A DNA stretch of 38,789 bases from an uncultured Alcaligenaceae bacterium (GCA_964396485.1 CAYNFN010000467.1:1-38789); one strand, 5' to 3'; positions 13,498 through 38,789 are shown, counted from the first letter of the stretch. Notes: generated by a model not told the origin, from the letters alone. Numbers and translations are program-made.

Positions 13498-13498
13498 C

Positions 13499-17132: not shown

Positions 17133-17133
17133 C

Positions 17134-19341
17134 ATGAAGCAAATCCTGCAGAACCTCAATACTGGCGTCACCGAAGTGGCCCAACTTCCATCGCCCCGCG
17201 CCGGCGCGGGGCAATTGTTGATTTACACCACCCGCACGCTGGTCTCGGTAGGCACCGAGCGCATGCTGGTCGAGTTCGGCAAGGCCAACTGGTTGGACAA
17301 GGCACGCCAGCAGCCGGACAAGGCGCGCATGGTGCTGGAGAAGGTGCGCACCGACGGATTGGCGGCCACGCTGGAGGCAGTGAAAAACAAGCTGGACCAA
17401 CCGCTGGCCTTGGGCTATTGCAACGTGGGAGTGGTGGCGGGGCTGGGGTCTGGGGTCGAAGGCTTTGCCGTTGGAGACCGCGTCGTTTCAAACGGCAAGC
17501 ACGCCGAGGTCGTGTGTGTGCCGAAGAACTTGTGCGCCCGCATTCCCGAGGCTGTGCTGGACGACCATGCCGCCTTCGCGGTGCTGGGTGCCATCGGCCT
17601 GCAAGGCATCCGGCTCGTCAACCCGACGCTTGGCGAGTGCGTGGTAGTGACGGGCCTGGGCCTGATCGGGCTGTTGACGGTCCAGATGCTGCGCGCCCAA
17701 GGTTGCCGGGTGCTCGGCATCGATTTCGATCCCGTGCGTCTCGCGTTGGCGCGCGAGTTCGGTGCTGACGTGGTGGATATGTCGAAAGGCGAAGACCCCA
17801 TCGTTGCGGCTGTCACTTTCTCGCGCGGCCGTGGCGTGGACGCGGTGATCATTACTGCCTCTACTAAAAGCAGCGAGCCGGTCAGTCAGGCGGCGAAGAT
17901 GTGCCGCAAGCGTGGCCGCATCGTTCTGGTGGGCGTGACCGGGCTGGAGTTGTCCCGCGCAGACTTTTACGAAAAAGAACTATCGTTCCAGGTGTCATGC
18001 TCGTTCGGTCCGGGCCGTTACGACCCGGCATATGAGGAAGGCGGGCAAGATTACCCGGTGGGTTTTGTGCGTTGGACCGAGCAACGCAATTTCGAGGCGT
18101 TGCTGGACATGGTGGCGGATAGGCGGCTGGACGTGCAGCTGCTGATCTCGCATCGGTTTCCATTGGCGCGTGCGGAAGAAGCTTATGCGCTACTGACCAG
18201 CGATGCGCCGTCGCTCGGCATCCTGCTGGAGTATCCGGCGATTGACGAGAAACCGGACGAGGTATTGCGCCAGCGGACTGTGAAGCTTTCCCCTCACCCC
18301 CCGCCCCTCTCCCGGGAGGAGAGGGGAGAGAAACAAGCGGTGGTGGCTTTCGTGGGCGCCGGAAATTACGCTGGCCGAGTGCTGATTCCGGCCTTCAAGG
18401 ATGCCGGTGCCGGCCTTCACACGATAGTAAGTGGCGGCGGCGTCAGTGCCGTGCATTACGGCCGCAAGTACGGGTTTGCACAGGCCTCCACCGATCCGGC
18501 GGCCATGCTGGCCGATCCGGCCATCCATGCTGTGGTGGTCGCCACGCGACACGACAGTCATGCTCGCTACGTAATTCACGCGCTGCGGGCGGGCAAGCAT
18601 GTGTTCTGCGAGAAGCCGCTGTGTTTGACGTTGGAGGAGTTGCGGGAGATTGAGAAAGAGTTTGCCCGCACCCCAACGCTCCCCCGCAGTGCGGGGGCGG
18701 GGGCGGAACTTATGCGCGCTGCGGGGGAGGGGGCTCCCCTTCTAATGGTCGGCTTCAACCGCCGCTTCGCACCGCAGGTGGTGCGGATGAAACAGTTGCT
18801 CGCAGGGTTGGGCGAACCCAAGGCTTTCGTGATGACAGTGAATGCCGGTGCCATTCCATTGAATCATTGGACCCAGGATCCGGTCGTGGGCGGCGGTCGC
18901 ATTGTCGGCGAGGCCTGTCATTTCATCGATCTATTGCGTCATCTGGCCGGCGCGTCCATCGACCGGCATTCTGAAGCGGCACTGGGGCGCCATCCCGGCA
19001 TGGCGGTGACCAGTGATAAGGCGACGATCACGCTGGAATTTGCAGACGGCTCGATCGGCACCATCCACTATCTCGCCAATGGGAACAGGAGTTTCCCCAA
19101 GGAGCGATTGGAAGTTTTTTGCGGGGGGCGGGTGCTTCAGCTCGATAACTTCCGCAAGCTGCGTGGATGGGGTTGGAAGGGTTTCTCGAAAATGAATCTC
19201 TGGCGGCAGGACAAGGGGCAAGCAGCGTGTGTGAAGGCCTTTGTCGAGGCGCTGCGCAACGGTGGCCCCGTGCCGATTCCGTTGGAAGAGATCCTCGAAG
19301 TCAGCCGGGTGAGCATCGAGGCGCAGCAGGCCTTGTCGTGA
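17134..19341 (+). CDS. two-domain oxidoreductase: N-terminal MDR (zinc-type alcohol dehydrogenase-like) plus C-terminal Gfo/Idh/MocA domain
   Basis: ATG 17134 lies 1 nt after the wecB stop. The track start at 17020 overlaps wecB. The N-terminal half has GDRVVSNGKHAEVV and the Rossmann VVVTGLGLIGLL. The C-terminal half has VAFVGAGNYAGRVLIPAF, HVFCEKPLCL and MVGFNRRFAP. Two GC-rich palindromic segments lie in frame and are listed as separate features. Confidence 0.75.
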   Translation: MKQILQNLNTGVTEVAQLPSPRAGAGQLLIYTTRTLVSVGTERMLVEFGKANWLDKARQQPDKARMVLEKVRTDGLAATLEAVKNKLDQPLALGYCNVGVVAGLGSGVEGFAVGDRVVSNGKHAEVVCVPKNLCARIPEAVLDDHAAFAVLGAIGLQGIRLVNPTLGECVVVTGLGLIGLLTVQMLRAQGCRVLGIDFDPVRLALAREFGADVVDMSKGEDPIVAAVTFSRGRGVDAVIITASTKSSEPVSQAAKMCRKRGRIVLVGVTGLELSRADFYEKELSFQVSCSFGPGRYDPAYEEGGQDYPVGFVRWTEQRNFEALLDMVADRRLDVQLLISHRFPLARAEEAYALLTSDAPSLGILLEYPAIDEKPDEVLRQRTVKLSPHPPPLSREERGEKQAVVAFVGAGNYAGRVLIPAFKDAGAGLHTIVSGGGVSAVHYGRKYGFAQASTDPAAMLADPAIHAVVVATRHDSHARYVIHALRAGKHVFCEKPLCLTLEELREIEKEFARTPTLPRSAGAGAELMRAAGEGAPLLMVGFNRRFAPQVVRMKQLLAGLGEPKAFVMTVNAGAIPLNHWTQDPVVGGGRIVGEACHFIDLLRHLAGASIDRHSEAALGRHPGMAVTSDKATITLEFADGSIGTIHYLANGNRSFPKERLEVFCGGRVLQLDNFRKLRGWGWKGFSKMNLWRQDKGQAACVKAFVEALRNGGPVPIPLEEILEVSRVSIEAQQALS
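18304..18326. repeat. GC-rich palindrome (9-bp stem CCCCTCTCC/GGAGAGGGG, 5-nt loop) lying in frame in the interdomain linker of the oxidoreductase
   Basis: Read directly: cccctctcc-cggga-ggagagggg. It encodes part of SPHPPPLSREERGEK, between the MDR and Gfo/Idh/MocA halves. Confidence 0.7.
18679..18739. repeat. nested GC-rich palindromes lying in frame inside the Gfo/Idh/MocA domain
   Basis: cccccgca-g-tgcggggg lies at 18681-18697. ctcccccgcag (18679-18689) pairs with ctgcgggggag (18719-18729). ggggag (18724-18729) pairs with ctcccc (18734-18739). The segment encodes PTLPRSAGAGAELMRAAGEGAP just before the conserved MVGFNRRF. Confidence 0.65.
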
Positions 19342-20995: not shown

Positions 20996-22243
20996 ATGCA
21001 CATCCTGTTCCTTACCGACAATTTCCCCCCGGAAACCAATGCGCCGGCCTCGCGCACGCACGAGCATGCGAAGCGCTGGGTGGCGGCCGGGAATCAGGTT
21101 ACGGTGGTGACGGGTATACCAAATTTTCCGAGTGGCAAGATTCACGCGGGTTACCGTAATCGGCCCTGGCAGCGCGAGACGATGGACGGTATTCAAGTGG
21201 TGCGGGTGTGGACCTATATCACGGCGAACGAAGGATTCCTGAAACGCACGCTCGACTACATGAGCTTCATGGTGGCCGCAATTGTCGCCAGCCCATTTCT
21301 ACCCCGTCCGGATGTCATCGTGGCGACCTCGCCGCAATTCTTTACGCCCTGCGCGGCGTGGGTGGTGTCGCTGCTTCGGCGGCGCCCATTCGTGTTCGAG
21401 TTGCGCGACCTCTGGCCGGATTCGATCGTGGCCGTGGGCGCAATGCGTGAAACCAGGGTGATCGGCTGGATGCGCAAGCTGGAGTATTTTCTGTATCGTC
21501 GGGCGGCGCGAATCGTGAGCGTAACCCAGTCGTTCAAGCGCGTGCTGACTGCCAACGGCGTCGATGCAGACAAGATCGCCGTTGTGCCGAACGGCGTGGA
21601 CCTCGATATCTATCTACCTGGGCCCAGGCCGGAGGAGCTGGTGCGCCGGCTACGCCTCGAGGGCAAGTTCGTCGCCGCTTACGTGGGGACCGTTGGCATG
21701 GCGCACGGAATCAATACGCTTCTCGATGCGGCCAGGACGCTGCAGGGGCGGGCGGATATCGTGTTCGTGGTGGTCGGCACCGGCGCCGAACATGCGGCCT
21801 TGGCCGAGCAATCCCGACGCGACGGGATGCGCAACGTGATTTTCGTCGGGGCGGTAAGCAAGGCCGAGGTGCGGGACTATTGGCGTTTGTGCGATGTCGC
21901 GGTGGTGCTGTTGCGGGATGCGCCGTTGTTCCGGCATGTGATTCCGTCGAAGATTTTCGAGGCGATGGGAATGGAGCGGGCAATCATTCTGGGCATCAAG
22001 GGCGAAAGCGAGGAGATTCTGCTGGAGTCGGGTGCGGGGATCACGATACCGCCGGAGGATGCCACAGCGTTGGCGCATTCGGTGGTGGAATTGGCGGATG
22101 ATCGCGAACGTTGTATCGCGCTCGGCTTGAAGGGCCGGCGTTACGCTTCGGAAAATTTCAGCCGTGAGACTCTGGCGAAAAGAATGCTGGCGGAGCTAGA
22201 ACGGGTAAGAAATACTGGATCGATTCACGACAATGAGCATTGA
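20996..22243 (+). CDS. family 4 glycosyltransferase, WbuB/WcaI-like
   Basis: The N-terminus is MHILFLTDNFPPETNAPASRTHEHAKRWVAAGNQVTVVTGIPNFPSGK, the characteristic WcaI/WbuB N-terminus. The C-terminal block is VIPSKIFEAMGMERAIILG. Confidence 0.8.
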   Translation: MHILFLTDNFPPETNAPASRTHEHAKRWVAAGNQVTVVTGIPNFPSGKIHAGYRNRPWQRETMDGIQVVRVWTYITANEGFLKRTLDYMSFMVAAIVASPFLPRPDVIVATSPQFFTPCAAWVVSLLRRRPFVFELRDLWPDSIVAVGAMRETRVIGWMRKLEYFLYRRAARIVSVTQSFKRVLTANGVDADKIAVVPNGVDLDIYLPGPRPEELVRRLRLEGKFVAAYVGTVGMAHGINTLLDAARTLQGRADIVFVVVGTGAEHAALAEQSRRDGMRNVIFVGAVSKAEVRDYWRLCDVAVVLLRDAPLFRHVIPSKIFEAMGMERAIILGIKGESEEILLESGAGITIPPEDATALAHSVVELADDRERCIALGLKGRRYASENFSRETLAKRMLAELERVRNTGSIHDNEH

Positions 22244-22267
22244 CGCTGAACGCGTCACGCTCGATAA

Positions 22268-22507
22268 GAGCAGGGCCGAGGACTGAGGACTGAGTAAGGG
22301 CGAGTGCCCGGTGCTCAGTGCGCAGTGCGAGAAGAGAAGGGCCGAGGACGGAGGGCCGAGGACTGAGGACTGAGTAAAGGCGAGTGCTGAGTGCGAGAAC
22401 GGCAGGGCCGAGTAAGGGCAAGGACGCAGGACTCAGGGAACGACGAGTGCTGCGTACGGCGGCAGGGCAGGTTAAAGGGCAAAGGTGAAAGGGGAAAGTA
22501 GGGGTGC
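22268..22507. repeat. heptanucleotide-register degenerate tandem repeat block R1
   Basis: Cutting the region into 7-mers gives gggccga ggactga ggactga gtaaggg cgagtgc ccggtgc tcagtgc gcagtgc ... cgaggac ggagggc cgaggac tgaggac ... aggttaa agggcaa aggtgaa aggggaa. One phase is kept over about 240 bp. The + strand is purine-rich. Confidence 0.85.
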
Positions 22508-22616
22508 GGATTGGCGGTCGGCGAAGTTTGCCTGTTCCAAAGCCGGTTAGAGGCGGAGCGTACTTTTCGGTGCTTTTTTTGTAGAATGTCCCAAGGTCCG
22601 AAAGCGGGGGAATGAC

Positions 22617-22874
22617 ATGTCACACACTGCGAGTCTTTCCAAGTCTGATTTGCGTCGTCTTGAGTGTCTTGCCGAAGATGCGGGCACTACACCGCAAAAG
22701 ATCCTGAAGACCGTACTTCGGGATGGATTCGAATACACAGAATGGTTCGTGCGCCGGGTCGACGAAGGCGACGCCGACTTCAAAGCCGGTCGGATAATGA
22801 GTACCGAAGAAGTGCTTTCCGTCATCGAAAAGCAACGGGCTTCGCGTGGCCGAAAGTCCTCCGCGGCCGCTTGA
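22617..22874 (+). CDS. putative type II antitoxin (ParD/RHH-like) paired with the downstream ParE/RelE toxin
   Basis: 85-aa ORF overlapping the toxin gene by 29 nt. It has a GGGGGA Shine-Dalgarno sequence 6 nt upstream and a TAGAAT -10-like hexamer at 22582-22587. The family assignment rests on genetic context and size, not on a motif I can name. Confidence 0.5.
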   Translation: MSHTASLSKSDLRRLECLAEDAGTTPQKILKTVLRDGFEYTEWFVRRVDEGDADFKAGRIMSTEEVLSVIEKQRASRGRKSSAAA

Positions 22875-23151
22875 GTGGTCGGCCCATGCCAGTGCGGATC
22901 TTGCGGCTATCGACACGTGGTATGCGCAATTTGGTGAATCGACTGCTGAACGTGTGATTTCGAGTATTTTGGCGGCTGCCCAGATCCTTCGTGATCATCC
23001 CTTTCTTGGCCCCGAGGGCATAAAGCCAGGCACGCGGCATAAAGTCGTTGGCGAGTATCCCTACACCATCGTTTTCCGGATTACGCGGTCAAAGATTCGT
23101 GTGATACGTGTGCTGCACCAGCGGCGCGTGTACTTTCAGCGAACACGATGA
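22846..23151 (+). CDS. type II toxin, RelE/ParE superfamily
   Basis: LEWSAHASADLAAIDTWYAQF...AERVISSILAAAQILRDHPFLGPEG...GTRHKVVGEYPYTIVFRITRSKIRVIRVLHQRR is the typical ParE/RelE layout (W...A..DL..I..Y, P..G, Y.I.Y......I.I..V.H.RR). The start is GTG. Confidence 0.7.
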   Translation: MAESPPRPLEWSAHASADLAAIDTWYAQFGESTAERVISSILAAAQILRDHPFLGPEGIKPGTRHKVVGEYPYTIVFRITRSKIRVIRVLHQRRVYFQRTR

Positions 23152-23160
23152 CTTAGAACA

Positions 23161-23375
23161 GGAAGCTAAGACGAAAGCAAGGATGAAGGTCGGCAAGGAA
23201 CCGGCGCTCGGTGCGAGAACGGCAGGGCCGAGGACTGAGGACTGAGTAAAGGCGAGTGCCCGGTGCTCAGTACTCTGAGATGCCGTGACGGCGTGACGGT
23301 CGTGACGACGTGACGACGCATCGCCTTCGGCGGAAGGAGCAGAGCCACCTTCGGTGGTGTACTCAGTGCTCAGCG
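23161..23375. repeat. degenerate short tandem repeat block R2
   Basis: It contains gggccga ggactga ggactga gtaaagg cgagtgc ccggtgc tcagtac, and also a cgtgacg-type run (gccgtgacggcgtgacggtcgtgacgacgtgacgacg) whose period wanders between 7 and 9. It has the same word set and the same strand polarity as R1. Confidence 0.75.
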
Positions 23376-23381
23376 GACGAA

Positions 23382-23675
23382 TTACGCTGCCTGCAACAGG
23401 AACTCAACCTTTATTGCCTCGAATGGAAAGACAATACCCCCGCCTTCAGCCCGATCCAGTACGCCGGCTTTGAGCAAAGCCGTCACATCGGTGTGCACTG
23501 CTTTGACGTCACGGTCGACTCGCCGGGCTGCTTCACGGATGGACACCGGCCCCGCCCCGCACAACGCCTTAAGCAACTCCCATCGCTTGACGGTCAGAAC
23601 CTGCCAGAGCAACTCCGGGATCGTGAAGAGGGCCGGTCCGGCACAGATCACGATGCAGCGATTATCTGATTGCAA
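23382..23675 (-). CDS. small winged-HTH DNA-binding protein (MarR-like antitoxin/regulator family), possibly N-terminally truncated
   Basis: LLWQVLTVKRWELLKALCGAGPVSIREAARRVDRDVKAVHTDVTALLKAGVLDRAEGGGIVFPFEAIKVEF resembles the C-terminal two thirds of the roughly 100-120-aa HTH proteins found next to toxin genes. It overlaps the VapC stop by 14 nt, so the true start is uncertain. Confidence 0.4.
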   Translation of the reverse strand: MQSDNRCIVICAGPALFTIPELLWQVLTVKRWELLKALCGAGPVSIREAARRVDRDVKAVHTDVTALLKAGVLDRAEGGGIVFPFEAIKVEFLLQAA

Positions 23676-24093
23676 ATCGTTTCACACCCGCCTTATTGGC
23701 GGCTTTCTGTAAATCTTCATCGAGTGTCGCCAGCGGCAACCCCTCCCGCATAGCAAGCTCCAGATACGAAGCATCGTAGGCTGAGAGTCGGTAGCGGCGT
23801 GCGATCTGAAGCGTATCCGAAAGCGCCTTGGAAAATGTTGCTGAGTCCGCCCCGATGTCCACGACCCCCAGCATTTCGAGGAAGGCTTCGCTTTGCGCCT
23901 CCCTCACCAAACCCTTCACCTCCGCATTGGCAATAACGTTGGATACTTCAAGCCCCCACGTCACCGGCACTAGCGCGCTCGTCTCCGCCTGCTTCATGGT
24001 ATCCAACACTTTTAGTGCATAGGCGCGGTCAGCCGGTTTGCCGTCGAGGAAGAGCCAGCACATCGTCACCGAGGCGTCGAGCACGAAGTTCAC
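23662..24093 (-). CDS. vapC: PIN-domain ribonuclease toxin
   Basis: The four acidic PIN positions are visible: FVLDASV, WGLEVSN, SAYDASYLELA and ATLDEDL. The GTG start overlaps the antitoxin stop (GTGA). Confidence 0.8.
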   Translation of the reverse strand: MNFVLDASVTMCWLFLDGKPADRAYALKVLDTMKQAETSALVPVTWGLEVSNVIANAEVKGLVREAQSEAFLEMLGVVDIGADSATFSKALSDTLQIARRYRLSAYDASYLELAMREGLPLATLDEDLQKAANKAGVKRFAIR

Positions 24094-24335
24094 GCGCGGC
24101 CTTCTTCGATGAGTTCTTTGATGTTTACGCCGCCGCGCACCGGGTTGTTTCGCATGAACGCTTTGAACTTTTCAACCGCAGCGGACTTGTTTTTCGGTTT
24201 CACGCTTTCGCTTGGAACGAGGTCAGCCATCGCCTCGCCGCGATTGGTGATCGTAAACCGCTTGCCCGCCTTTACTTGCCGCAGCAGCTCGGGCAGTTTG
24301 GTCTTGGCCTCGTAGGCGCCGATTTCGATTTTCAT
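24090..24335 (-). CDS. Phd/YefM-family type II antitoxin
   Basis: MKIEIGAYEAKTKLPELLRQVKAGKRFTITNRGEAMADLVP is the canonical Phd/YefM N-terminal fold signature. It lies directly upstream of vapC and is coupled to it. Confidence 0.8.
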   Translation of the reverse strand: MKIEIGAYEAKTKLPELLRQVKAGKRFTITNRGEAMADLVPSESVKPKNKSAAVEKFKAFMRNNPVRGGVNIKELIEEGRA

Positions 24336-24357
24336 GCGGATTGACGCCTGAATATGT

Positions 24358-24381
24358 CAGACTAGTATATAGACCAGTCTG
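24358..24381. promoter_or_regulatory. inverted repeat around a TATATA box; candidate operator/promoter of the phd-vapC operon
   Basis: The sequence reads cagactagt-atata-gaccagtctg, with arms matching 8 of 9 positions. It lies 23-46 nt upstream of the antitoxin start codon at 24335 (minus strand). An outer tgtca/tgaca pair lies at 24355-24359 and 24387-24391. Confidence 0.4.
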
Positions 24382-24687
24382 AGATGTGACAAACACAAAT
24401 AGAGCCATAAGATAGGCCACCCAAAAAAGCAGCCCCAAGACCCTCAACCACGAGCTGCTGTTCCGGGCGGGCTATGCCAGGGTTATGAATACCGTCGCGC
24501 CATCCGGGTGATTCGCCTGTGCTGGGGGCCGACTCAACCCGCGTCCGGGGGACGCGGCTAGAAGCCGCTCTGTGCGCTTCGGTCAATCCGTTAAAACGTT
24601 CATCCCGAGCGACCTGGCGCTCTCGATCATCCAGTCGTCGAGGCAGAGAATGCCCTGTGCGCTCCGGCTTGCGGCGATGACAAGGTA

Positions 24688-24876
24688 GGGTCGAGGTTCG
24701 AGGGCCGAGGACTGAGGACTGAGTAAAGGCGAGTGCTCGGTGCGAGAAGGGAAGGGCCAAGGTTCGAGGGCTGAGGACTGAGGACGGAGGGCCGAGAAAA
24801 GGCGAGAGGAAAGAGGAAAGTAAGGACCAAACTGCAGGACTCGGGACTCAAAAGATCGGTGACGAGTGACTGATGG
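24688..24876. repeat. heptanucleotide-register degenerate tandem repeat block R3
   Basis: gggtcga ggttcga gggccga ggactga ggactga gtaaagg cgagtgc tcggtgc ... tgaggac tgaggac ggagggc cgagaaa aggcgag aggaaag aggaaag taaggac ... tcggtga cgagtga ctgatgg. A single 7-nt phase holds throughout. Confidence 0.85.
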
Positions 24877-24948
24877 CAGGTGCTGAGAAACGGTCACCGC
24901 TGGAGGGGGGTGGTGGTAAATCCTCCACTGAATGGATAAAATTCATCC

Positions 24949-26184
24949 ATGTACCAGCGGAATATCTCCAGTCGCCTGCTCGATGCCCTGAGGCGCGCGC
25001 CCGTGGTGGTGCTGAACGGTGCCCGCCAGACCGGCAAGAGCACGCTGGCCAGAGCTTTCGCCGAGGGGGCTCATCCGGCCGAATACCTCACGCTGGACGA
25101 TGCCGCCGTGTTCGCGGCCGCCAATTCCGATCCCCAGGGATTCATTCAAGGACTCCGCGGCCCAGTAGTTCTCGATGAAGTCCAGCGCGCGCCCGCCTTG
25201 TTCAGGGCGGTCAAACTGGAGGTCGACCAGCGTCGGGTTCCCGGGCGGTTTCTTCTTACAGGATCGGCGAATGTGCTGACACTGCCGGTCCTGTCGGAGT
25301 CCCTTGCCGGTCGCTCTGAGCTGCTCACGCTGTGGCCATTGTCTCAAGGCGAACTCGAAGGCACGCTGGAGAATTTCATCGACCGATGCTTCGAGGGTAC
25401 TTTCCCGCCGTCATCGGCGCAGACGGATTCTCGAACGAAGCTGGCGAACCGAGTTGCGACGGGCGGTTTTCCGGAAGTGATCGGAAAGGACGCCTCGGGC
25501 AGGGCGGCATGGTACGGGTCCTACATCACGACAATTCTGCAACGGGATGTCCGCGAGCTTGCGAATATCGACGGACTTACGGAAATGCCGAGATTACTCG
25601 CCTTGCTGGCCTCAAGGGTCGGTGCCTTGCTCAACTTGGCTGAGGTGTCTCGCAGCAGTGGGATTTCGCAGACGACATTGAGGCGTTATCTTGCGCTGCT
25701 GGAGACGACTTTCCTTTTCGCCGCGCTGCCAGCGTGGTCGACCAATCTCGGCAAGAGGCTAGTCAAGGCCCCGAAGGCTTTTCTGACCGACGCGGGTCTT
25801 GCGGCTTACCTCACCGGTCGTGACGAAAACCGGCTCGCGGGAGATCCGTCTGCGTTCGGCGCTTTGCTCGAGAACTTCGTCGTGATGGAGCTTCGAAAGC
25901 AGGCCGGTTGGGCTTTAAATCGCGTGAGTCTTTTTCACTTTCGGACACAGGTTGGGCAGGAGGTCGATGTCGTCATCGAACGCCCGGACGGGGATATTGT
26001 CGGTATAGAGATCAAGGCATCGGCCACCATCGAGCCTCGGGACATGAATGGATTCAAGGCGCTTGCCGAGATCGCCGGCAGGCGGTTTCGTGGCGGTATT
26101 CTTCTTTACACGGGGCAGAAGACCGTACCGTTCGGTAGTGGCATCCAAGCTGTGCCCTTGTCCCGGTTATGGGGAAAGAAATAG
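24949..26184 (+). CDS. AAA+ ATPase with DUF4143-type C-terminal domain
   Basis: The Walker A motif is LNGARQTGKSTL and the Walker B-like motif is VVLDEVQ. The C-terminal FENFVVMELRKQ...EVDVVIE...GIEIKAS pattern is a restriction-endonuclease-like fold as in DUF4143 proteins. Confidence 0.7.
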   Translation: MYQRNISSRLLDALRRAPVVVLNGARQTGKSTLARAFAEGAHPAEYLTLDDAAVFAAANSDPQGFIQGLRGPVVLDEVQRAPALFRAVKLEVDQRRVPGRFLLTGSANVLTLPVLSESLAGRSELLTLWPLSQGELEGTLENFIDRCFEGTFPPSSAQTDSRTKLANRVATGGFPEVIGKDASGRAAWYGSYITTILQRDVRELANIDGLTEMPRLLALLASRVGALLNLAEVSRSSGISQTTLRRYLALLETTFLFAALPAWSTNLGKRLVKAPKAFLTDAGLAAYLTGRDENRLAGDPSAFGALLENFVVMELRKQAGWALNRVSLFHFRTQVGQEVDVVIERPDGDIVGIEIKASATIEPRDMNGFKALAEIAGRRFRGGILLYTGQKTVPFGSGIQAVPLSRLWGKK

Positions 26185-26232
26185 TGCCGCGCCTGTCGAA
26201 CCGGGAGAGAGCAGGAATCAGGACGGAAATTC

Positions 26233-26522
26233 GGTGACTGGTGACCGGTGACCAGTGACGGGGAACGGCAAGTGCTCAGCGCGAGGTGCGTAAGAGCAGT
26301 GCTCAGTACTCGGTGCGCAGTGCGAAGTGCGTAAGAGCAGGGCCGAGGTTCGAGGGCTGAGGACTGAGGACGGAGGGCCGAGAAAAGGCGAGAGGAAAGA
26401 GGAAAGTAAGGACCAAACTGCAGGACTCGGGACTCAGGGAGAAACGAGTGCGCAGTGCGAGAAGGGCAGGGTCGAGGGTCGAGGGCCGAGCGCCGAGAAA
26501 AGGCGGGTGCTCGGTGCCGAGA
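26233..26522. repeat. heptanucleotide-register degenerate tandem repeat block R4
   Basis: ggtgact ggtgacc ggtgacc agtgacg ... then a gtgctca/gtgcgca-type run, then a 97-bp stretch (26340-26436) identical but for 1 nt to 24754-24850, then gggtcga gggtcga gggccga. Confidence 0.85.
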
Positions 26523-26527
26523 GCATG

Positions 26528-26932
26528 TCATGGGAGTAGCAGGGTCCGGATGCCGTAACGCTCGTAAACCGGCAGCGCCCGTCGGTCGCAGGTGACTAGT
26601 TCGGCACCGCAGCCAGCTGCAGTCGCGGCCACCAGCGCGTCGTAGGCGGTGCCGCCGGTCACCCCGTGATCGGGCAATCCGCGAATGAAGTCCTTGTAGC
26701 CCCTTGCGTTTAACCGCAGGAACGGCTGTGGAAACCGTGTCTCCAGAAAATCACGGACGATGGGGCCGGAAGTGCGGTGAGGAGGCGGCAACCTGGTAAG
26801 CACGGAGTAGGTCTCAAGCGCGCAGTGCTCGATCAGGCGTAGCCCGCGGTCAAGGGTGCGTCGCGCGGCCTCGTGGCTCTCGTGCCAGGATGCAAATGCG
26901 GCGATGACCAGGCTGGTGTCGGCCGCCTTCAA
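26528..26932 (-). CDS. vapC: PIN-domain ribonuclease toxin
   Basis: AADTSLVIAA, LETYSVLTR, AYDALVAATAA and LVTCDRRA supply the PIN acidic residues. The TTG start overlaps the antitoxin stop (TTGA). Confidence 0.75.
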   Translation of the reverse strand: MKAADTSLVIAAFASWHESHEAARRTLDRGLRLIEHCALETYSVLTRLPPPHRTSGPIVRDFLETRFPQPFLRLNARGYKDFIRGLPDHGVTGGTAYDALVAATAAGCGAELVTCDRRALPVYERYGIRTLLLP

Positions 26933-27174
26933 CGCCGGACGCGCTCCAGGGTGTCGCGAACCTGTTCGGCCGTGAGTGCAGGCAGTTTGGCATCCGGGAC
27001 TGCAACCAGCCCTTTCCCCCGCTTCTTCAACCGTATCGGGGTCGGGGCAATCTCGATCTCAAGGCGCCCGTCACCCGCCCTGATCTCCAGCGGCTGGCCC
27101 GGTTTGAGGCCCAGGGCCTGTCGCAGCGGCTTGGGCACGACGATCCGTCCGGCGGCGTCAATGGTAGCTTTCAT
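26929..27174 (-). CDS. AbrB/MazE/SpoVT-family antitoxin (VapB-type)
   Basis: The 81-aa product is MKATIDAAGRIVVPKPLRQALGLKPGQPLEIRAGDGRLEIE..., the swapped-hairpin SpoVT/AbrB motif (G.i.iPk..R..lgl..G..l). It is the 3' part of the 385-aa track ORF 26929-28086, whose upstream 304 codons run through repeat block R5 and antisense to wecA, so I do not believe that part. ATG was verified at 27172-27174 (cat on +). Confidence 0.75.
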   Translation of the reverse strand: MKATIDAAGRIVVPKPLRQALGLKPGQPLEIRAGDGRLEIEIAPTPIRLKKRGKGLVAVPDAKLPALTAEQVRDTLERVRR

Positions 27175-27207
27175 GGCATCAAGATTGCCATGAAAGTGGT
27201 ATGGCAA
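27171..27207. promoter_or_regulatory. three phased ATGGCA/TGCCAT half-sites; candidate operator of the abrB-vapC operon
   Basis: tcATGGCAtcaagatTGCCATgaaagtggtATGGCAa. tcatggca (27171-27178) is the exact reverse complement of tgccatga (27186-27193). ttgccat (27185-27191) pairs with atggcaa (27201-27207). The site spans the antitoxin start codon. Confidence 0.4.
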
Positions 27208-27227
27208 CAACCATTTTCTGCCGGAAA

Positions 27228-27405
27228 GGCCGAGGACGGAAGACGGAGGACTGAGGACTGAGGGCCGAGAAAAGGCGAGAGGAAAGAGAAAAGAGGAAAG
27301 AGGAAAGTAAGGGCGAGGACTCAGGACTGAGGGCCGAGGACTGAGGACGGAGCGCCGAGGACTGAGGACTGAGTACTGAGTAAGGGCAAGTGCTAGGTGC
27401 GAGTT
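27228..27405. repeat. heptanucleotide-register degenerate tandem repeat block R5
   Basis: It uses the same word set (ggccgaggac, ggactgagg, gagaaaaggcgagaggaaag, aggaaagtaaggg, gactcaggactgagggccgagg) in the same polarity. Confidence 0.8.
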
Positions 27406-27570
27406 GCCGAATACGAAAGACAGGGGTAATGTAGGGCGGGTGCCAAGGGCATGGGCATATGACAAGAAACACTTGGTCGAGACCGATAAGTTTCTAAGAG
27501 CCCGAGGGCATAGAGAGCGTGGTTTGTACGGCGTAGTGCAAGTGATGCAGTATCGGGGAGGCAAGAAGAA

Positions 27571-28644
27571 ATGCTGTACGCCATAGTGGCGTTTGTCGGC
27601 ACGCTGTGTTTGATCTTTCTGCTGCGCAAGTACGCTCGCGGGTTCGGGCTGGTCGACACGCCTTCCCCCCGCAAGACCCATCTCGGCGAGATTCCCGTGA
27701 TCGGGGGCCTTGCGATCGGTATTGCTTTCCTCCTGACTTCGCTCACGCAGTATTCGGTCGAGCCGAACCTTCTCGCGCTCATCGTTTGTTGTCTTGTGAT
27801 CCTGTCGACTGGACTGCTCGACGACATGGAGGAATTTTCGGCGCGCGGCAAATTCGTCGGGCAGGTCATTGCCGCGGTGCTCATGACGTCCTGGGCGAAC
27901 CTGTACCTCACCGATCTCGGCAACCTCTGGGGCACTGGCGAGGTGGTGCTGAGGAATTGGGAGATCCCGTTCACGTTGTTCTGCGTCATCGGGCTTATCA
28001 ACTCGATGAACATGATCGACGGTCTCGATGGGCTCGCCGGCGGCATCGCAGCCATCGCGGCCGTGTGGCTCGGCGTGGCGGCGCATATCGAGTATCCGTT
28101 CAAAGATCCGGCAGCGCTGCTTTTCATCTTGGCCGCGGCGGTGGCGGGGTTCCTGGTGTTCAATTTACGGCATCCGTGGAGACGGCACGCGTCGGTATTT
28201 CTCGGGGACTCCGGCAGCATGTTCCTCGGGTTCGTGCTGGTTTGGTTCACCGTGGACATTACGCAGGGTGCGCCGAGCGATTTCTACCCCATCTCCGCGG
28301 TGTGGGTTCTGGGTGTGCCGATCATCGATACCGTGTATCTGATGGTGCGCCGTATAACCTTGGGCCGGAATCCATTCGCACCCGACCGGAGGCATGTCCA
28401 TCACACGCTGATCTTCATGGGGCTTTCCGAGAGTCGGACACTTTGGTTGCTTCTGGGCATGTCCGCACTCTTCGGCGCGATCGGGTTTTTCGGCTGGTAT
28501 TTCAAGGTGCCGGAATACATTCTGACCTACGGCTTCCTGGCGACTTTCGCTGCTTATGGCGTTTTCATGCAGCGCTGGCGCGAAATCCTCTGGTTCTTCG
28601 GCGTCAAGCACAAGCACCTTCCCGCCAGGACGCAGGAGCGATAA
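27571..28644 (+). CDS. undecaprenyl-phosphate HexNAc-1-phosphate transferase (WecA/WbpL, MraY-like family)
   Basis: 357-aa polytopic protein with GLVDTPSPRKTH, LLDDMEEFSARGKF, NSMNMIDGLDGLAGG, LGDSGSMFLGF and a C-terminal HVHH. These are the signature blocks of polyisoprenyl-phosphate N-acetylhexosamine-1-P transferases. A GGGGAGG Shine-Dalgarno sequence lies upstream. Confidence 0.85.
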   Translation: MLYAIVAFVGTLCLIFLLRKYARGFGLVDTPSPRKTHLGEIPVIGGLAIGIAFLLTSLTQYSVEPNLLALIVCCLVILSTGLLDDMEEFSARGKFVGQVIAAVLMTSWANLYLTDLGNLWGTGEVVLRNWEIPFTLFCVIGLINSMNMIDGLDGLAGGIAAIAAVWLGVAAHIEYPFKDPAALLFILAAAVAGFLVFNLRHPWRRHASVFLGDSGSMFLGFVLVWFTVDITQGAPSDFYPISAVWVLGVPIIDTVYLMVRRITLGRNPFAPDRRHVHHTLIFMGLSESRTLWLLLGMSALFGAIGFFGWYFKVPEYILTYGFLATFAAYGVFMQRWREILWFFGVKHKHLPARTQER

Positions 28645-28651
28645 AAAGGAC

Positions 28652-28982
28652 GGTGACCAGTGACTGGTGACAAGTGACGGGGAAAGGCAAAGATGAAGGC
28701 GGAAGGATGAAGGATGAAGAAAGACAGGGCCGAGGACTGAGAAAAGGCGAGGACTCAGGACTGAGGACGGAGGGCCGAGAAAAGGCGAGAGGAAAGGGGA
28801 AAGTAAGGGCGGTGACCAGTGACTGGTGACGAGTGACCAGTAAAGTTGAGGACTCGGGACGCAGCGAGAAGAGCAGGGCTGAGGTACGAGGGCCGAGGAA
28901 GGGCGAGGACTGAGGACTGAGGACGGAGGGCCGAGGAAGGGCGAGGACTCAGGACCCAGCGAGAAACGAGTGCGCAGTGCGA
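28652..28982. repeat. heptanucleotide-register degenerate tandem repeat block R6
   Basis: ggtgacc agtgact ggtgaca agtgacg ... tgaaggc ggaagga tgaagga tgaagaa ... aggactc aggactg aggacgg agggccg ... tgaccag tgactgg tgacgag tgaccag ... cgaggac tgaggac tgaggac ggagggc. About 330 bp in one phase. Confidence 0.85.
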
Positions 28983-29045
28983 CACCTGTTGAGTCCCTTC
29001 TCCCTCCGGGAGAAGGACAGGATGAGGGGGCTTTTGCCGGTGTTA

Positions 29046-29106
29046 TTCCCTCACCCCAACCCTCTGCTCCGCTTCAAGTGTTCCCTTGTCCCGGAGGGAG
29101 AGGGGG
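29046..29106 (+). repeat. about 60-bp dispersed repeat, copy A (C-rich arm ... G-rich arm, REP-like)
   Basis: ttccctcaccccaaccctctgctccgcttcaagtgttcccttgtcccggagggagaggggg. About 90% identical by eye to copy B at 30737-30798. It is preceded by a separate hairpin, ccttctccc-tcc-gggagaagg, at about 28996-29016. Confidence 0.7.
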
Positions 29107-29223
29107 AAAAACGATGCGCACTATTCACCGGTTGGGTCAGTAAGGCATCGTCCATCGAAATCCGCCGCTTGCTGGCTTCTGCCGAAGCCGCACTCGCCGA
29201 TGCCAAACGTTTGCAGAACAACG

Positions 29224-33971: not shown

Positions 33972-35852
33972 ATGAGCGGGATCGCCGGCATCATTCATTG
34001 TGACGGTGTGCCCGTCGAACCGGGGCTGGTCGAGAAAATGACCGCCGCCATGGCCTACCGCGGGCCGGACGGCATCAACCATTGGGTCAAGGGCTCGGTT
34101 GCATTGGGGCAGTGCATGCTGCGCACAACCCCGGAATCGCTCGAAGAAACCCAGCCGCTGACAAACGAAGACCAGAGCCGGGTGCTCGTCATGGATGGGC
34201 GCGTGGACAATTGGGAAGAACTCCGCACGGAGCTGCTCGCCTGCGGCGCGATGCTCAGAAACCGCGCCGATGCCGAACTGGTATTGCGAGCCTACGAGAC
34301 TTGGGGCCGGGACTGCCTCACGCACATCGACGGCGACTTCGCACTGGTGATCTGGGATGTGCGGCGGCAGGAAGCGTTTTGCGCGCGCGACCGCATGGGT
34401 AACAAGCCGTTCCATTATCATTGGAGCGGTAACACGCTGGTCTTTGCCTCAGAACTGCATCCGATTCTCGCGCTGCCGTGGGTGCCGCAAATGCCGAATG
34501 AGGGCATGCTGGCAGAGTTTCTCGCGGCGGAGTGGTATTCGCGCGATGAAACACTTTGGAATGGAATCCTGCGTCTCCTTGCCGCGCACCGCATGACGGT
34601 CGGCCGTCGCGGGCCGCAAACCGATCAATACTGGGGACCGAATCTGTGGGCGGCACCGGCATATACAAGGGACGAAGAATATTTCGAGCATTACCGGGAA
34701 TTGCTAACGGACAGCGTCCGGCGGTTGTCGCGTTCGCACCGCCCGGTCGCCGTCGAGGTCAGCGGCGGTCTCGATTCCTCCGCCGTGTTCTGCCTCGGGG
34801 AGCACCTGCGTCGTGCCGGTCGTTTGCCCGCGCCCGGTATCCGTGGGTACACCATGGCCTTCACGGACGACAGCGCCGCCAATGAAATCGCCTATGCCCG
34901 GGCCGTAGGCGAATATTTGGGTCTGCCGATTGAGGAGATCGCCCCTTCCATCCCACCGCTTTCCTGGTATGAAGAGCGCGCTCACATGTACCGGGAGTTC
35001 CCCGGTTATCCGAACGGGACGATGTATCTTGATGCGATGAGGCATGCTGCATCTCTGGGGTGCCGCACGGTGCTGACCGGCCAAGGGGGCGACGCCTGGG
35101 CGCAAGGTTCACGGGAGTACTATGCCGAGGAGATGGCGCAACGGCATTGGACCGCGCTTCGAGACAGCTTCAGAAATGATTCCGGCGTGTACGGTACCCA
35201 GCAGGCCATGGCATGGTTTGTCCGGTACGGCTTTTATCCCTTGCTTCCAATCGCACTTCAGCATGGATTGCGCCAACTGGTGCGCAGGCTGCGCGGCACG
35301 GCGATTCGCGACACCTATTGGCTTTCGCCGCGGATGCGGCAGGTTATTGCGGCGCGTCGTGAACACCCCCGTCCGTGGATTGGTCAGCGAGTGCGCAGTA
35401 TCAGTCAGCGGGAATTGCTTCAGAAACTGTATGACGCGTTTACCATCCAGGCAATGGAATTCCTGGATCGGGAGGGCGCCCGTGCCGGGTTCGAAATACG
35501 GCATCCGTTCCATGCCACGGCCTTTGTCCAATTCGCGTTCGCGACGCCGGCAAGGCTGCGATTGCGGGGCGATCGCACCAAATACATTCACGTCCAGGCC
35601 ATGCAAGGCCTGATGCCCCCGATCATCCTCGATCGGAAAACCAAGGCGGAATTCTCGGTTGTATTCCATATGCAGATGGTCCGGATGAAATCGCTGCTGA
35701 CCGAATCGATTCCCAGGGAGCGAACCGGCTGGGTAGACCCGGTGGGCACGTCCATGCTCTTCCAAGCGTATGTGAACACCCCGCAGGTGGGTTGGCCATT
35801 ATGGGTTTTGTGGAGTATCTTTGGGTCTGACGCGGTGGTGAAAGGGCTCTGA
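33972..35852 (+). CDS. asparagine-synthetase-like lasso peptide cyclase (C protein)
   Basis: 626 aa with AsnB architecture and the PP-loop VEVSGGLDSS. It begins MSGIAG, so Ser replaces the catalytic Cys2, unlike the two MCGI paralogs at 9465 and 13499. It lies next to B2 and the precursor gene. Confidence 0.8.
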   Translation: MSGIAGIIHCDGVPVEPGLVEKMTAAMAYRGPDGINHWVKGSVALGQCMLRTTPESLEETQPLTNEDQSRVLVMDGRVDNWEELRTELLACGAMLRNRADAELVLRAYETWGRDCLTHIDGDFALVIWDVRRQEAFCARDRMGNKPFHYHWSGNTLVFASELHPILALPWVPQMPNEGMLAEFLAAEWYSRDETLWNGILRLLAAHRMTVGRRGPQTDQYWGPNLWAAPAYTRDEEYFEHYRELLTDSVRRLSRSHRPVAVEVSGGLDSSAVFCLGEHLRRAGRLPAPGIRGYTMAFTDDSAANEIAYARAVGEYLGLPIEEIAPSIPPLSWYEERAHMYREFPGYPNGTMYLDAMRHAASLGCRTVLTGQGGDAWAQGSREYYAEEMAQRHWTALRDSFRNDSGVYGTQQAMAWFVRYGFYPLLPIALQHGLRQLVRRLRGTAIRDTYWLSPRMRQVIAARREHPRPWIGQRVRSISQRELLQKLYDAFTIQAMEFLDREGARAGFEIRHPFHATAFVQFAFATPARLRLRGDRTKYIHVQAMQGLMPPIILDRKTKAEFSVVFHMQMVRMKSLLTESIPRERTGWVDPVGTSMLFQAYVNTPQVGWPLWVLWSIFGSDAVVKGL

Positions 35853-38645: not shown

Positions 38646-38789
38646 AAGGGAAAAAGGGGAAAGTTAAGGGCGAGGACTCAGGACTGAGGGCCGAGTAAAG
38701 GCGGGGACTGAGGACGGAGGGGCGGGGACTGAGTAAGGGCGAGGACTCAGGACTGAGGGCCGAGGACTGAGTAGAAGCAGTGACTCAGG
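38646..38789. repeat. heptanucleotide-register degenerate tandem repeat block R7 (runs to the window edge)
   Basis: aaagggaaaaaggggaaagttaagggcgaggactcaggactgagggccgagtaaaggcggggactgaggacggagg... uses the same words and the same polarity as R1-R6, and shares aagggcgaggactcaggactgagggccgag with R5. Confidence 0.8.

What the first reader, a model, noticed from the sequence alone, without database searches (positions are those of the whole stretch)
22268..28982. Seven blocks of degenerate tandem repeats locked in a 7-nt register, all with the purine-rich strand on +
**Seen in sequence.** The blocks lie at 22268-22507, 23161-23375, 24688-24876, 26233-26522, 27228-27405, 28652-28982 and 38646-38789 (window end), about 1.7 kb in total. 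When cut into 7-mers they show short runs of related heptamers:
- GGACTGA x2-3
- NNNGTGC x4
- GTGACNN x4
- AGGNNAA x4
- TGAAGGA x3
- AGGAAAG x2

These runs are joined end to end without losing phase over 180-330 bp. The same words recur in different orders in different blocks. Polarity is identical in all seven blocks, although the flanking genes are on both strands. Seven is not a multiple of three, so the long ORFs crossing the blocks (LSPQSSAL-type peptides) are artefacts.

**Established knowledge.** Heptameric STRR repeats are known from heterocystous cyanobacteria, and related heptamers have been reported in large sulfur bacteria. I do not know of them in a GC-rich genome of this type.

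**Inference.** This is a strand-specific generating or maintenance mechanism (slippage plus recombination, or a dedicated enzyme), or a binding array. R1 ends in four GGG(G) tracts (about 22466-22507) that could form a G-quadruplex with long loops.
Basis: seen in the sequence. Interest (0 to 1): 0.75.

Follow-up and report, generated by a model that had tools for sequence, protein, structure and literature searches.

The report
Heptamer-repeat spacers joining toxin-antitoxin cassettes
The seven blocks are real non-coding spacers built from short runs of 7-base repeats, a known but poorly understood kind of bacterial repeat. Here they form the joints between small toxin-antitoxin gene cassettes that have been inserted and reshuffled inside a polysaccharide gene cluster.

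Summary
All seven blocks show strong lag-7 self-similarity (0.47-0.67 against about 0.25 background; block 2 is weak). All are purine- and G-rich on the + strand, and none contains inverted repeats.

They are not locked in one register. The phase of a given word shifts inside every block, and Fourier power at period 7 is low over whole blocks.

The blocks are mosaics of short heptamer runs and share co-linear modules of up to 104 nt at 97% identity. They belong to the known class of bacterial heptanucleotide repeats (cyanobacterial STRR, Xanthomonas/Nostoc G-rich heptamers, TAACTGA repeats). This lineage is an uncultured betaproteobacterium (Burkholderiales).

Comparison with relatives adds one point. 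The closest relative has the GT4 gene followed directly by WecA, whereas the window carries 5.1 kb (blocks 1-5 plus four cassettes) in place of 21 nt. Cassettes recur at other sites bounded by blocks, and two cassettes are bracketed by direct-repeat modules.

The uniform polarity is best explained by descent through duplicative recombination. A strand-specific enzyme is not needed: elsewhere orientation is random, and reversed blocks occur in the same lineage.

G-quadruplex potential is marginal. This is a new member of a known kind, of moderate interest.

The parts
22268..22507 (+). Heptamer mosaic block 1. It begins 24 nt after the GT4 stop codon (22243).
   Evidence: Lag-7 identity 0.52, z 7.2, purine 0.72. 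It starts with TAAGAGCAGGGCCGAG, the same start as the block after WecA in relative L136.
23161..23375 (+). Block 2, between the convergent ParE and HVO_A0114 genes. The heptamer core is about 23210-23275, and 23284-23315 is a period-8 run.
   Evidence: Lag-7 identity is only 0.34, z 2.3. TRF finds a period-8 array. 23224-23375 is 100% identical in an independent metagenome contig, L134.
24688..24876 (+). Block 3, in the divergent region between the Phd/PIN/HVO operon (-) and the ATPase gene (+).
   Evidence: Lag-7 identity 0.55, z 7.6. It contains the 104-nt module 24747-24850.
26233..26522 (+). Block 4, between the convergent ATPase gene (+) and PIN gene (-). The GTGAC-run module starts at 26227.
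   Evidence: Lag-7 identity 0.55, z 9.5. It contains module 26333-26436, 97% identical to 24747-24850.
27228..27405 (+). Block 5, between the MazE/AbrB start (-) and the WecA upstream region.
   Evidence: Lag-7 identity 0.67, z 10.4, the best period-7 Fourier power. Synteny with L116, L119, L132, L136 and L138 begins at 27396-27404.
28652..28982 (+). Block 6, which starts 2-8 nt after the WecA stop codon (28644).
   Evidence: Lag-7 identity 0.56, z 9.6. The GTGAC-run module 28646-28686 also occurs after the ATPase stop codon.
38646..38789 (+). Block 7, cut by the end of the window.
   Evidence: Lag-7 identity 0.47, z 3.9. TRF finds period 21/31/38 arrays of the same words.
22268..27396 (.). 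A 5.1-kb segment (blocks 1-5 plus four cassettes) that replaces 21 nt present in the closest relative, where GT4 is followed directly by WecA.
   Evidence: L136 positions 1-88 match window 22177-22264 and positions 107-1358 match window 27396-28644 at 96%. Junction alignment.
22617..23151 (+). Cassette 1: an 85-aa protein without a Pfam hit (probable antitoxin) plus a ParE toxin.
   Evidence: Pfam PF05016, E 6e-15. The cassette is bracketed by a ~50-nt direct module, 22272-22322 and 23224-23274, 49/50 identical by eye. It is absent in L134, where a GT4-like 3' end meets a single block.
23382..24335 (-). Cassette 2: Phd/YefM-like antitoxin, PIN toxin and an HVO_A0114-family protein.
   Evidence: Pfam PF02604 (below its cut-off), PF01850 and PF25212. 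A promoter-like site lies at 24392-24364(-).
24949..26184 (+). Cassette 3: AAA_14/DUF4143 ATPase.
   Evidence: Pfam E 4e-45. It is bracketed by 104-nt direct repeats at 97% identity. It lies downstream of WecA in L136. Homology to the 98%-identical L139 copy ends 18 nt after the stop codon.
26528..27174 (-). Cassette 4: MazE/AbrB antitoxin plus PIN toxin.
   Evidence: Pfam PF04014 and PF01850.
27397..28644 (+). WecA/MraY-family glycosyltransferase with its conserved ~175-nt upstream region. It behaves as a unit bounded by blocks.
   Evidence: Pfam PF00953. Homology to five relatives starts at 27396-27404.

Best explanation
The blocks are STRR-type heptanucleotide mosaic repeats. They are non-coding intergenic DNA that grows and shrinks by replication slippage of 7-nt units. 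Homologous or microhomology-mediated recombination copies and homogenises them between sites.

In this uncultured betaproteobacterial lineage they fill every intergenic gap that is not promoter. They act as recombination joints: co-oriented blocks provide 50-100 nt of near-identical sequence, and through these the toxin-antitoxin and ATPase cassettes are inserted, deleted and permuted inside the polysaccharide gene cluster.

The identical polarity of the seven blocks is a historical consequence of duplicative recombination, in which each insertion leaves direct repeats. Inferred: it is probably reinforced by selection against inverted copies, which would invert parts of the operon. No strand-specific enzyme is required.

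Shown: periodicity, mosaic modules, direct-repeat bracketing, empty versus occupied sites, and cassettes at different sites bounded by blocks. Inferred: slippage as the generator, recombination as the mechanism of cassette movement, and selection on orientation.
For: - Local period 7 with phase shifts and shared co-linear modules.
- The ATPase cassette is bracketed by 104 nt at 97% identity, and the ParDE cassette by about 50 nt (49/50).
- The closest relative, L136 (WecA 96% identical), has GT4 followed by 21 nt and then WecA. The window has 5,129 nt there. In L136 the ATPase cassette lies after WecA, behind a block that starts like window block 1.
- L134 is 100% identical to window 23224-23628 but lacks block 1 plus ParDE. 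The breakpoint is inside the block.
- The same two-gene cassette (87% nt identity) sits upstream of WecA in L116 and downstream in L119. Homology starts at the stop codon and ends just past the promoter, with blocks beyond.
- L120 has one 100-nt block between VanZ and MORN where L119 has block-cassette-block-cassette-block. The unique flanks match, by my reading of the sequences printed.
- L060 has a block between the YjbH and aspartate kinase (Pfam AA_kinase) genes where L120 has none.
- Expanded perfect runs occur in L119.
- No recombinase is encoded in the window.
- Homologues of the ATPase in other phyla lack blocks, so the blocks are a host feature and not cassette cargo.
Against: - Recombination is inferred from end states, not observed.
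- Some breakpoints are not at blocks (window 23628, 27555, 28578).
- In Xanthomonas, G-rich heptamer repeats mark regions of more stable synteny (PMC4692102).
- The sharp cassette boundaries, 0-24 nt after stop codons, could point to a site-specific process.
- Slippage alone does not explain why GAGGACT recurs across about 15 phyla.
- The loci compared are all from one chromosomal region, so the polarity evidence in this lineage is not independent.
Confidence: 0.55

Rival explanations
1. The blocks are cis-acting elements at the RNA or transcription level. G-rich, C-poor spacers on the sense strand would let the long + strand operon tolerate untranslated gaps without Rho loading. The complementary C-rich, weakly structured RNA would act as a Rho-dependent terminator for the minus-strand toxin-antitoxin operons and for antisense transcripts. 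Alternatively, the GAGG/GGTGA-rich spacers could act as ribosome stand-by sites.
For: - Blocks abut the 3' ends of genes on both strands, 2-49 nt from six stop codons, and leave 54-350 nt before start codons.
- The minus-strand RNA has a C/G ratio of about 2-3 and folds weakly (-0.12 to -0.27 kcal/mol/nt in six blocks, -0.36 in block 2, against -0.35 for coding windows).
- No intrinsic terminators lie next to the blocks.
- Rehm et al. found G-rich heptamers within 50 bp of stop codons on the coding strand, and found them transcribed (PMC4692102).
- In other phyla the blocks lie inside operons such as ATP synthase and ribosomal protein operons.
Against: - Across phyla, orientation relative to co-directional flanking genes is 10 sense, 7 antisense and 6 both. 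Strongly purine-skewed blocks split 17 same to 25 opposite.
- The same lineage has an antisense-oriented block directly upstream of a + strand export gene (L138 5881-6075).
- There is no Rfam match.
- There are no expression data.
Confidence: 0.2
2. One reading: a dedicated strand-specific enzyme (telomerase- or reverse-transcriptase-like, or a recombinase) writes the heptamers. Alternatively, the blocks are arrays of binding sites for a sequence-specific protein.
For: - The 19-mer CCGAGGACTGAGGACTGAG occurs in more than 115 loci of about 15 phyla, against about 4 expected by chance.
- In viral contigs it gives 8 hits, against 0 and 2 for scrambled controls.
- Blocks sit at every junction with sharp boundaries.
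- GAGGACT is one base away from the Nostoc unit GGGGACT (PMC4692102).
Against: - No candidate gene is in the window or the fetched flanks.
- Blocks are copies of each other, with shared modules, and not de novo syntheses.
- Orientation elsewhere is random.
- Apart from GAGGACT and the GGGCCGA-GGACTGA and GAGGACT-GAGTGCT pairs, the window's words are lineage-specific.
Confidence: 0.1
3. The blocks function through G-quadruplex formation on the G-rich strand.
For: - Four G3-4 tracts lie at 22465-22504.
- One canonical motif lies at 26464-26485 and a relaxed motif at 38688-38739, all on the + strand.
- Related heptamers form G4 in vitro (PMC4692102).
Against: - The dominant units (GAGGACT, AGTGCGA, GGTGACN, AGAGGAA) have no G3 tract.
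- Four of the seven blocks have no G4 motif even with 12-nt loops.
Confidence: 0.05
4. The blocks are assembly artefacts of a repeat-rich metagenome bin.
For: Homologous genes in short-read assemblies often sit on gene-sized contigs that end in the blocks.
Against: - An independent contig reproduces 150 nt of block 2 exactly.
- Each block has unique flanks and a unique module order.
- Blocks of the same type occur in Mb-sized MAG contigs (labelled MFD) and in isolate genomes.
Confidence: 0.03

Closest known systems
Cyanobacterial STRR / G-rich heptamer repeats GGGGA(C/T)T of Nostoc PCC 7120 (Mazel 1990, from memory; Rehm et al. 2015, PMC4692102)
   Same: - 7-nt tandem units in degenerate arrays of 40-180+ nt.
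- Dispersed and mostly intergenic, including inside operons.
- Variable length between relatives; function unknown.
- The dominant unit here, GAGGACT, differs from GGGGACT by one base.
- GAGGACT arrays co-occur with GGGGTGA-type units in the cyanobacterium Egbenema (L061).
   Different: - The host is an uncultured betaproteobacterium with about 59% GC.
- The blocks are mosaics of at least six word families with conserved module order.
- There is no G3 tract per unit.
- The blocks lie at cassette junctions.
GGGAATC repeats of Xanthomonas (PMC4692102)
   Same: - A G-rich heptamer in a GC-rich proteobacterium.
[quoted passage not shown]
- Length varies between species.
   Different: - The Xanthomonas repeats prefer four units and form G4.
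- They often occur as inverted pairs.
- They mark regions of more conserved synteny. Here the blocks lie at synteny breakpoints and none is inverted.
TAACTGA direct repeats of marine Beggiatoaceae, cyanobacteria and Bacteroidetes (PMC4679880)
   Same: - Heptamer direct repeats.
- The same word shared across distant phyla with no known vehicle.
- Intergenic. A shared CTGA core (GGACTGA against TAACTGA).
   Different: - TAACTGA sets are short (2-6 copies), lie just upstream of start codons and are co-oriented with the gene.
- The blocks here are 180-330 nt, abut stop codons and are mosaic.
Geobacter metallireducens heptanucleotide elements (GGACCGG x4, 49 copies; MTYCTGA x5) (PMC2700814)
   Same: Multicopy heptanucleotide tandem elements in a genome of about 60% GC, proposed to be regulatory.
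   Different: They have a fixed copy number (4 or 5), also occur within genes, and show no cassette association.
Integron cassette arrays (attC sites)
   Same: - Small, often toxin-antitoxin cassettes separated by repeated elements of uniform polarity.
- The repeat starts right after the stop codon.
- Cassette content differs between close relatives.
   Different: - There is no integrase and no attC-type imperfect inverted repeat.
- The cassettes carry their own promoters and lie on both strands.
Mosaic intergenic repeats (E. coli BIME/REP, pneumococcal BOX) (from memory)
   Same: Modular intergenic elements with a variable number of sub-units, located inside operons after stop codons, and acting as recombination substrates.
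   Different: Those elements are palindromic or hairpin-forming. The blocks here have no self-complementarity.

Membership tests
Heptanucleotide tandem repeats (STRR / long simple-sequence repeats) | Tandem repetition with a 7-nt unit | tested here: met
   Lag-7 identity is 0.47-0.67 in six blocks (0.34 in block 2), against a 0.25 background. TRF finds period 7/14/21.
Heptanucleotide tandem repeats (STRR / long simple-sequence repeats) | Dispersed, multicopy, predominantly non-coding location | tested here: met
   Seven blocks, all intergenic. Further copies occur in related genomes L060, L116, L119, L120 and L136-L139.
Heptanucleotide tandem repeats (STRR / long simple-sequence repeats) | Copy-number or length variation between relatives | tested here: met
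   The L120 block is 100 nt, against 240-410-nt blocks with x9-x11 perfect runs in L119. A block is present in L060 and absent in L120. The part shared with the near-identical L134 shows no length change.
Heptanucleotide tandem repeats (STRR / long simple-sequence repeats) | One of the named STRR units (CCCCAGT, TTGGTCA, CAACAGT) | tested here: not met
   The units here are GAGGACT, GGGCCGA, AGTGCGA, GGTGACN, AGAGGAA and GGATGAA. GAGGACT is a one-base variant of GGGGACT.
G-quadruplex-forming heptamer repeats (Rehm 2015) | A G3+ tract in every unit, with at least four consecutive units | tested here: not met
   Only one canonical G4 motif is found in 1.6 kb of blocks.
G-quadruplex-forming heptamer repeats (Rehm 2015) | [quoted passage not shown] | tested here: met
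   The blocks start 24, 10, 43-49 and 2-8 nt after the stop codons of the four + strand genes.
Integron | IntI tyrosine recombinase with attI next to the array | tested here: not met
   No recombinase domain was found in 30 ORFs of the window scanned against Pfam, 24 of them over 200 aa. The window is only 38.8 kb, so a distant integrase is not excluded.
Integron | attC sites: imperfect inverted repeats that fold as single strands | tested here: not met
   No inverted repeats in 22000-29200. The one block stretch tested against dinucleotide shuffles (block 2 tail, 23276-23380) shows no significant fold.
Phase-variation (contingency) repeats | A perfect repeat tract inside an ORF or between promoter elements, whose length switches expression | tested here: not met
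   The blocks are degenerate and lie after stop codons or more than 50 nt from start codons.
REP/BIME-type extragenic palindromes | Palindromic unit able to form a hairpin | tested here: not met
   No inverted repeats.
Known RNA families | Match to an Rfam covariance model | tested here: not met
   No hits at gathering threshold in the whole window.

The most novel reading that the evidence does not exclude
Heptamer mosaic blocks are the exchange sites of an integrase-independent cassette system. Arrays of co-oriented blocks would let a genome capture, excise and reorder small accessory modules by homology alone. A vocabulary partly shared across phyla (GAGGACT) would provide portable homology for transfer between unrelated bacteria. 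This would give STRR-type repeats, unexplained since 1990, a function.
Probability: 0.15. Interest if true: 0.7.

Novelty: new member of a known kind. Interest (0 to 1): 0.4.

Why it matters
Heptanucleotide repeats are the most abundant class of longer simple repeats in many bacteria, yet no function or generating mechanism is established.

This locus offers unusually clean comparative evidence: an empty site, an occupied site, and permuted order among relatives that are 96-100% identical. That evidence suggests such repeats can serve as joints for gene-cassette turnover inside an otherwise conserved operon, which is the opposite of the 'stable context' reported for Xanthomonas.

There is also a practical point. 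These blocks fragment short-read assemblies and generate long spurious ORFs, which annotation pipelines should mask.

Tried and rejected
- **Known RNAs.** Rfam and tRNA scans of the window found nothing.
- **Terminators.** No intrinsic terminator lies next to the blocks. The block 2 tail with two CCTTCGG hairpins shows no significant fold.
- **G-quadruplex as the unifying feature.** Rejected.
- **Carriers of FtsK-orienting KOPS (GGGNAGGG).** The motif is 6:0 on the + strand in the window, but it is not enriched in blocks over a Markov-1 expectation.
- **Integron.** Rejected: no attC-like inverted repeats and no integrase.
- **Toxin-antitoxin enrichment next to GAGGACT blocks in other phyla.** Not seen. 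The neighbours are housekeeping and operon genes.
- **Blocks travelling with the cassette.** Rejected. The ~60%-identical ATPase homologues in three other phyla have no blocks and sit by tRNA genes or an integrase.
- **Orientation tied to genes or GC skew across phyla.** Not seen.
- **Plasmid vehicle.** No blastn match for block 4 in PLSDB.
- **Metagenome scan for the lineage-specific module.** It returned only 7 loci.
- **Exact-protein look-up of the window's GT4.** Not on record.
- **Gene calling.** My crude ORF caller mis-orients small cassettes, so orientation statistics use only ORFs of 150-200 aa or more.
- **Literature.** Mrazek 2007 could not be read.

Full report
**Observation.**
- Identity at lag 7 is 0.47-0.67 in six of them and 0.34 in block 2. 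At lags 6 and 8 it is 0.24-0.35.
- In 352 background 200-nt windows of the same sequence the mean is 0.25 (sd 0.03, maximum 0.35). Shuffle z-scores are 7-10 for five blocks, 3.9 for block 7 and 2.3 for block 2.
- Tandem Repeats Finder reports period 7/14/21 arrays only there.
- All seven blocks are purine-rich (0.61-0.76) and G-over-C skewed (+0.22 to +0.52) on the + strand.
- A repeat search over 22000-29200 finds seven families of direct repeats and no inverted repeat.
- The + strand of the blocks carries 2-9 stop codons per frame and the minus strand 0-2. This is why long minus-strand ORFs cross the blocks. Pfam shows that ORF 26929-28086(-) is a genuine MazE/AbrB antitoxin only in its last 81 codons.

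**What is not confirmed** is the single locked register.
- The position mod 7 of GGAC or GAGG changes one to four times inside every block except block 2, which has only two adjacent copies of each word.
- Coherent Fourier power at period 7 over a whole block is no higher than at neighbouring periods, except in blocks 4 and 5.
- The blocks are therefore mosaics of short runs (2-5 units) of several heptamer families. Block 2 also contains a period-8 run.
- The G-quadruplex remark holds only as a pattern. Tracts at 22465-22504 have 6-11-nt loops, one canonical motif lies at 26464-26485, and four blocks have none.

**Anatomy and setting.** The window is a polysaccharide (EPS) biosynthesis cluster.
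- It encodes many glycosyltransferases, three asparagine-synthase paralogues, a heparinase II/III-like protein, UDP-GlcNAc 2-epimerase, an ABC exporter and WecA. All large genes are on the + strand, and no recombinase, transposase or reverse transcriptase was found.
- Four small units lie between the GT4 gene (20996-22243) and WecA (27571-28644):
  - an unknown 85-aa protein plus ParE (+);
  - Phd-like, PIN and HVO_A0114 (-);
  - an AAA_14/DUF4143 ATPase (+);
  - MazE/AbrB plus PIN (-).
- A block occupies every gap between these units. The blocks abut the 3' ends of genes on either strand (2-49 nt from six stop codons) and leave 54-350 nt before start codons.
- The blocks share co-linear modules. 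24747-24850 and 26333-26436 are 97% identical over 104 nt and bracket the ATPase gene. 22272-22322 and 23224-23274 (49/50 by eye) bracket the ParE unit. A GTGAC-run module follows the stop codons of both the ATPase and WecA.

**Relatives.** WecA homologues of 80-96% identity come from uncultured Betaproteobacteria/Burkholderiales MAGs and metagenomes (names). They carry the same block family.
- *L136* (96% WecA). The GT4 3' end is followed by 21 nt and then by the WecA upstream region. The window has 5,129 nt (22268-27396) in place of those 21 nt. In L136 the block after WecA starts TAAGAGCAGGGCCGAG, like window block 1, and runs into the upstream region of the ATPase cassette. The order of units is therefore permuted between very close relatives.
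- *L134* is 100% identical to window 23224-23628 (the right part of block 2 plus HVO_A0114). To the left it joins a GT4-like 3' end, so it lacks block 1 plus the ParE unit. The breakpoint is inside the block.
- *L116 and L119.* A two-gene cassette (87% nt identity) lies upstream of WecA in L116 and downstream in L119. Homology begins at the stop codon and ends just beyond the promoter/operator, with different blocks outside.
- *L120 and L119.* L120 has a single 100-nt block between VanZ and MORN. L119 has 2.2 kb of block-cassette-block-cassette-block between flanks that match, by my reading of the sequences printed. L119 also has perfect runs of 9-11 units.
- *L060 and L120.* L060 has a block between YjbH and the aspartate kinase (Pfam AA_kinase) gene where L120 has none.
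- *L116, L119, L132, L136 and L138.* Synteny upstream of WecA begins at window 27396-27404, the edge of block 5.
- *L139.* Homology of the ATPase cassette to its 98%-identical copy ends 18 nt after the stop codon, and a different block follows.
- Homologous genes often sit on gene-sized contigs (1.3-1.5 kb). This suggests that short-read assemblies break in the blocks (inference).

**Wider distribution.**
They come from about 15 phyla, including Mb-sized MAG contigs (labelled MFD) and isolate genomes. About 4 hits are expected by chance.
- 108 of the 115 loci show a lag-7 block of 70-410 nt.
- In viral contigs the 19-mer gives 8 hits, against 0 and 2 for scrambled controls.
- The neighbours there are ordinary operon genes (ATP synthase b and gamma, ribosomal L18/S5, IGPD, Cas1/Cas4), with no toxin-antitoxin enrichment.
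- Orientation is random with respect to flanking genes (34:30 and 30:29; co-directional contexts 10 sense, 7 antisense, 6 both) and to local GC skew.
- Only GAGGACT, and its adjacency to GGGCCGA or GAGTGCT, is shared across these loci. The other words of the window are lineage-specific.
- Within the lineage, reversed blocks exist (L138 5881-6075, L120 10216-10365).
- Homologues of the ATPase at about 60% identity in Planctomycetota, Blastocatellia and Deltaproteobacteria have no blocks and lie by tRNA genes or an integrase. The blocks are therefore a property of the host lineage, not cargo of the cassettes.

**Interpretation.** The best-supported reading has four parts.
- These are STRR-type heptanucleotide mosaic repeats. 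They expand and contract by slippage and are copied between sites by recombination.
- In this lineage they are the joints at which cassettes are inserted, lost and permuted.
- The uniform polarity follows from duplicative recombination, which leaves direct repeats. Inferred: selection against inverted copies inside an operon probably reinforces it.
- The + strand is probably the leading strand: cumulative GC skew rises throughout, and GGGNAGGG is 6:0 on the + strand. Replication and transcription polarity therefore cannot be separated in this window.

An RNA-level role remains possible. The G-rich sense spacer could be refractory to Rho, and the C-rich antisense could act as a Rho-dependent terminator. 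The composition and weak folding of the minus-strand RNA fit this, but the random orientation elsewhere does not. A dedicated enzyme or binding array has no direct support. The cross-phylum recurrence of GAGGACT stays unexplained.

**Comparison with the literature.**
- Heptanucleotide repeats are the most abundant class of 5-11-nt long repeats in many bacteria, including Burkholderia and Xanthomonas (Mrazek 2007 as summarised in PMC4679880).
- G-rich heptamers GGGAATC (Xanthomonas) and GGGGA(C/T)T (Nostoc) lie near stop codons on the coding strand and are transcribed. They mark regions of more conserved synteny (PMC4692102).
- TAACTGA repeats are shared between Beggiatoaceae, cyanobacteria and Bacteroidetes with no known vehicle (PMC4679880).
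- Geobacter metallireducens has multicopy heptanucleotide elements (PMC2700814).
- Heptamer repeats affect recF and recO expression in Nostoc (bioRxiv 10.1101/2022.06.06.494920).
- The present blocks are a new member of this class, with a new word set and a new host lineage. The notable difference is that they coincide with cassette junctions and synteny breakpoints.

**Verdict.** Interest is moderate.

Noticed in passing
L137 2400-2545; L138 545-690 and 2080-2265: A recurrent element with a heptamer arm (GGGCCGAGGTNCGAG...), a unique core beginning GAGTGAAATTCRA, and an inverted heptamer arm (CTCGGCCCTCGAACCTC). It looks like a MITE or a small RNA gene. It is absent from the window.
   Followed up: partly
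L001-L115 (genome-contig hits): The 19-mer CCGAGGACTGAGGACTGAG is present in more than 115 loci of about 15 phyla, next to housekeeping operon genes and with random orientation. No vehicle was identified. In several loci the arrays form inverted pairs, for example L044 597-650 and L010 5445-5575.
   Followed up: partly
L116 6930-7173, 8166-9040: Fragments of window genes (16041-16467, 17064-17511, 17369-17612) lie among toxin-antitoxin and Abi cassettes in a relative. This indicates a decayed and rearranged EPS cluster.
   Followed up: no
window 18724, 25497, 37353, 37495 (plus 24749, 26464): The KOPS consensus GGGNAGGG occurs six times on the + strand and never on the minus strand. Together with the monotonic cumulative GC skew, this suggests that the + strand is the leading strand.
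   Followed up: partly
proteins P0001, P0002, P0009, P0121 (contigs of 1.3-1.5 kb): WecA and ATPase homologues of this lineage mostly lie on gene-sized contigs. Short-read assemblies appear to break in the flanking heptamer blocks.
   Followed up: partly
window 22617-22874: An 85-aa ORF directly upstream of, and overlapping, the ParE toxin gene has no Pfam match. It is presumably a new or divergent antitoxin.
   Followed up: no
window 23310-23365: Two small CCTTCGG (UUCG-loop) hairpins lie in the tail of block 2 and are 100% conserved in L134. The predicted fold is not better than shuffles.
   Followed up: yes
L120 10050-10150 and 10360-10435: Two sequences that look like tRNA genes by eye lie between a + polarity block and a reversed block, downstream of the aspartate kinase (Pfam AA_kinase) gene. 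They were not checked with ARAGORN.
   Followed up: no
window 9465-11336, 13385-15427, 33972-35852: Three asparagine synthase (glutamine-hydrolysing) paralogues lie in one polysaccharide cluster. From memory, this is typical of exosortase/PEP-CTERM-type EPS loci.
   Followed up: no
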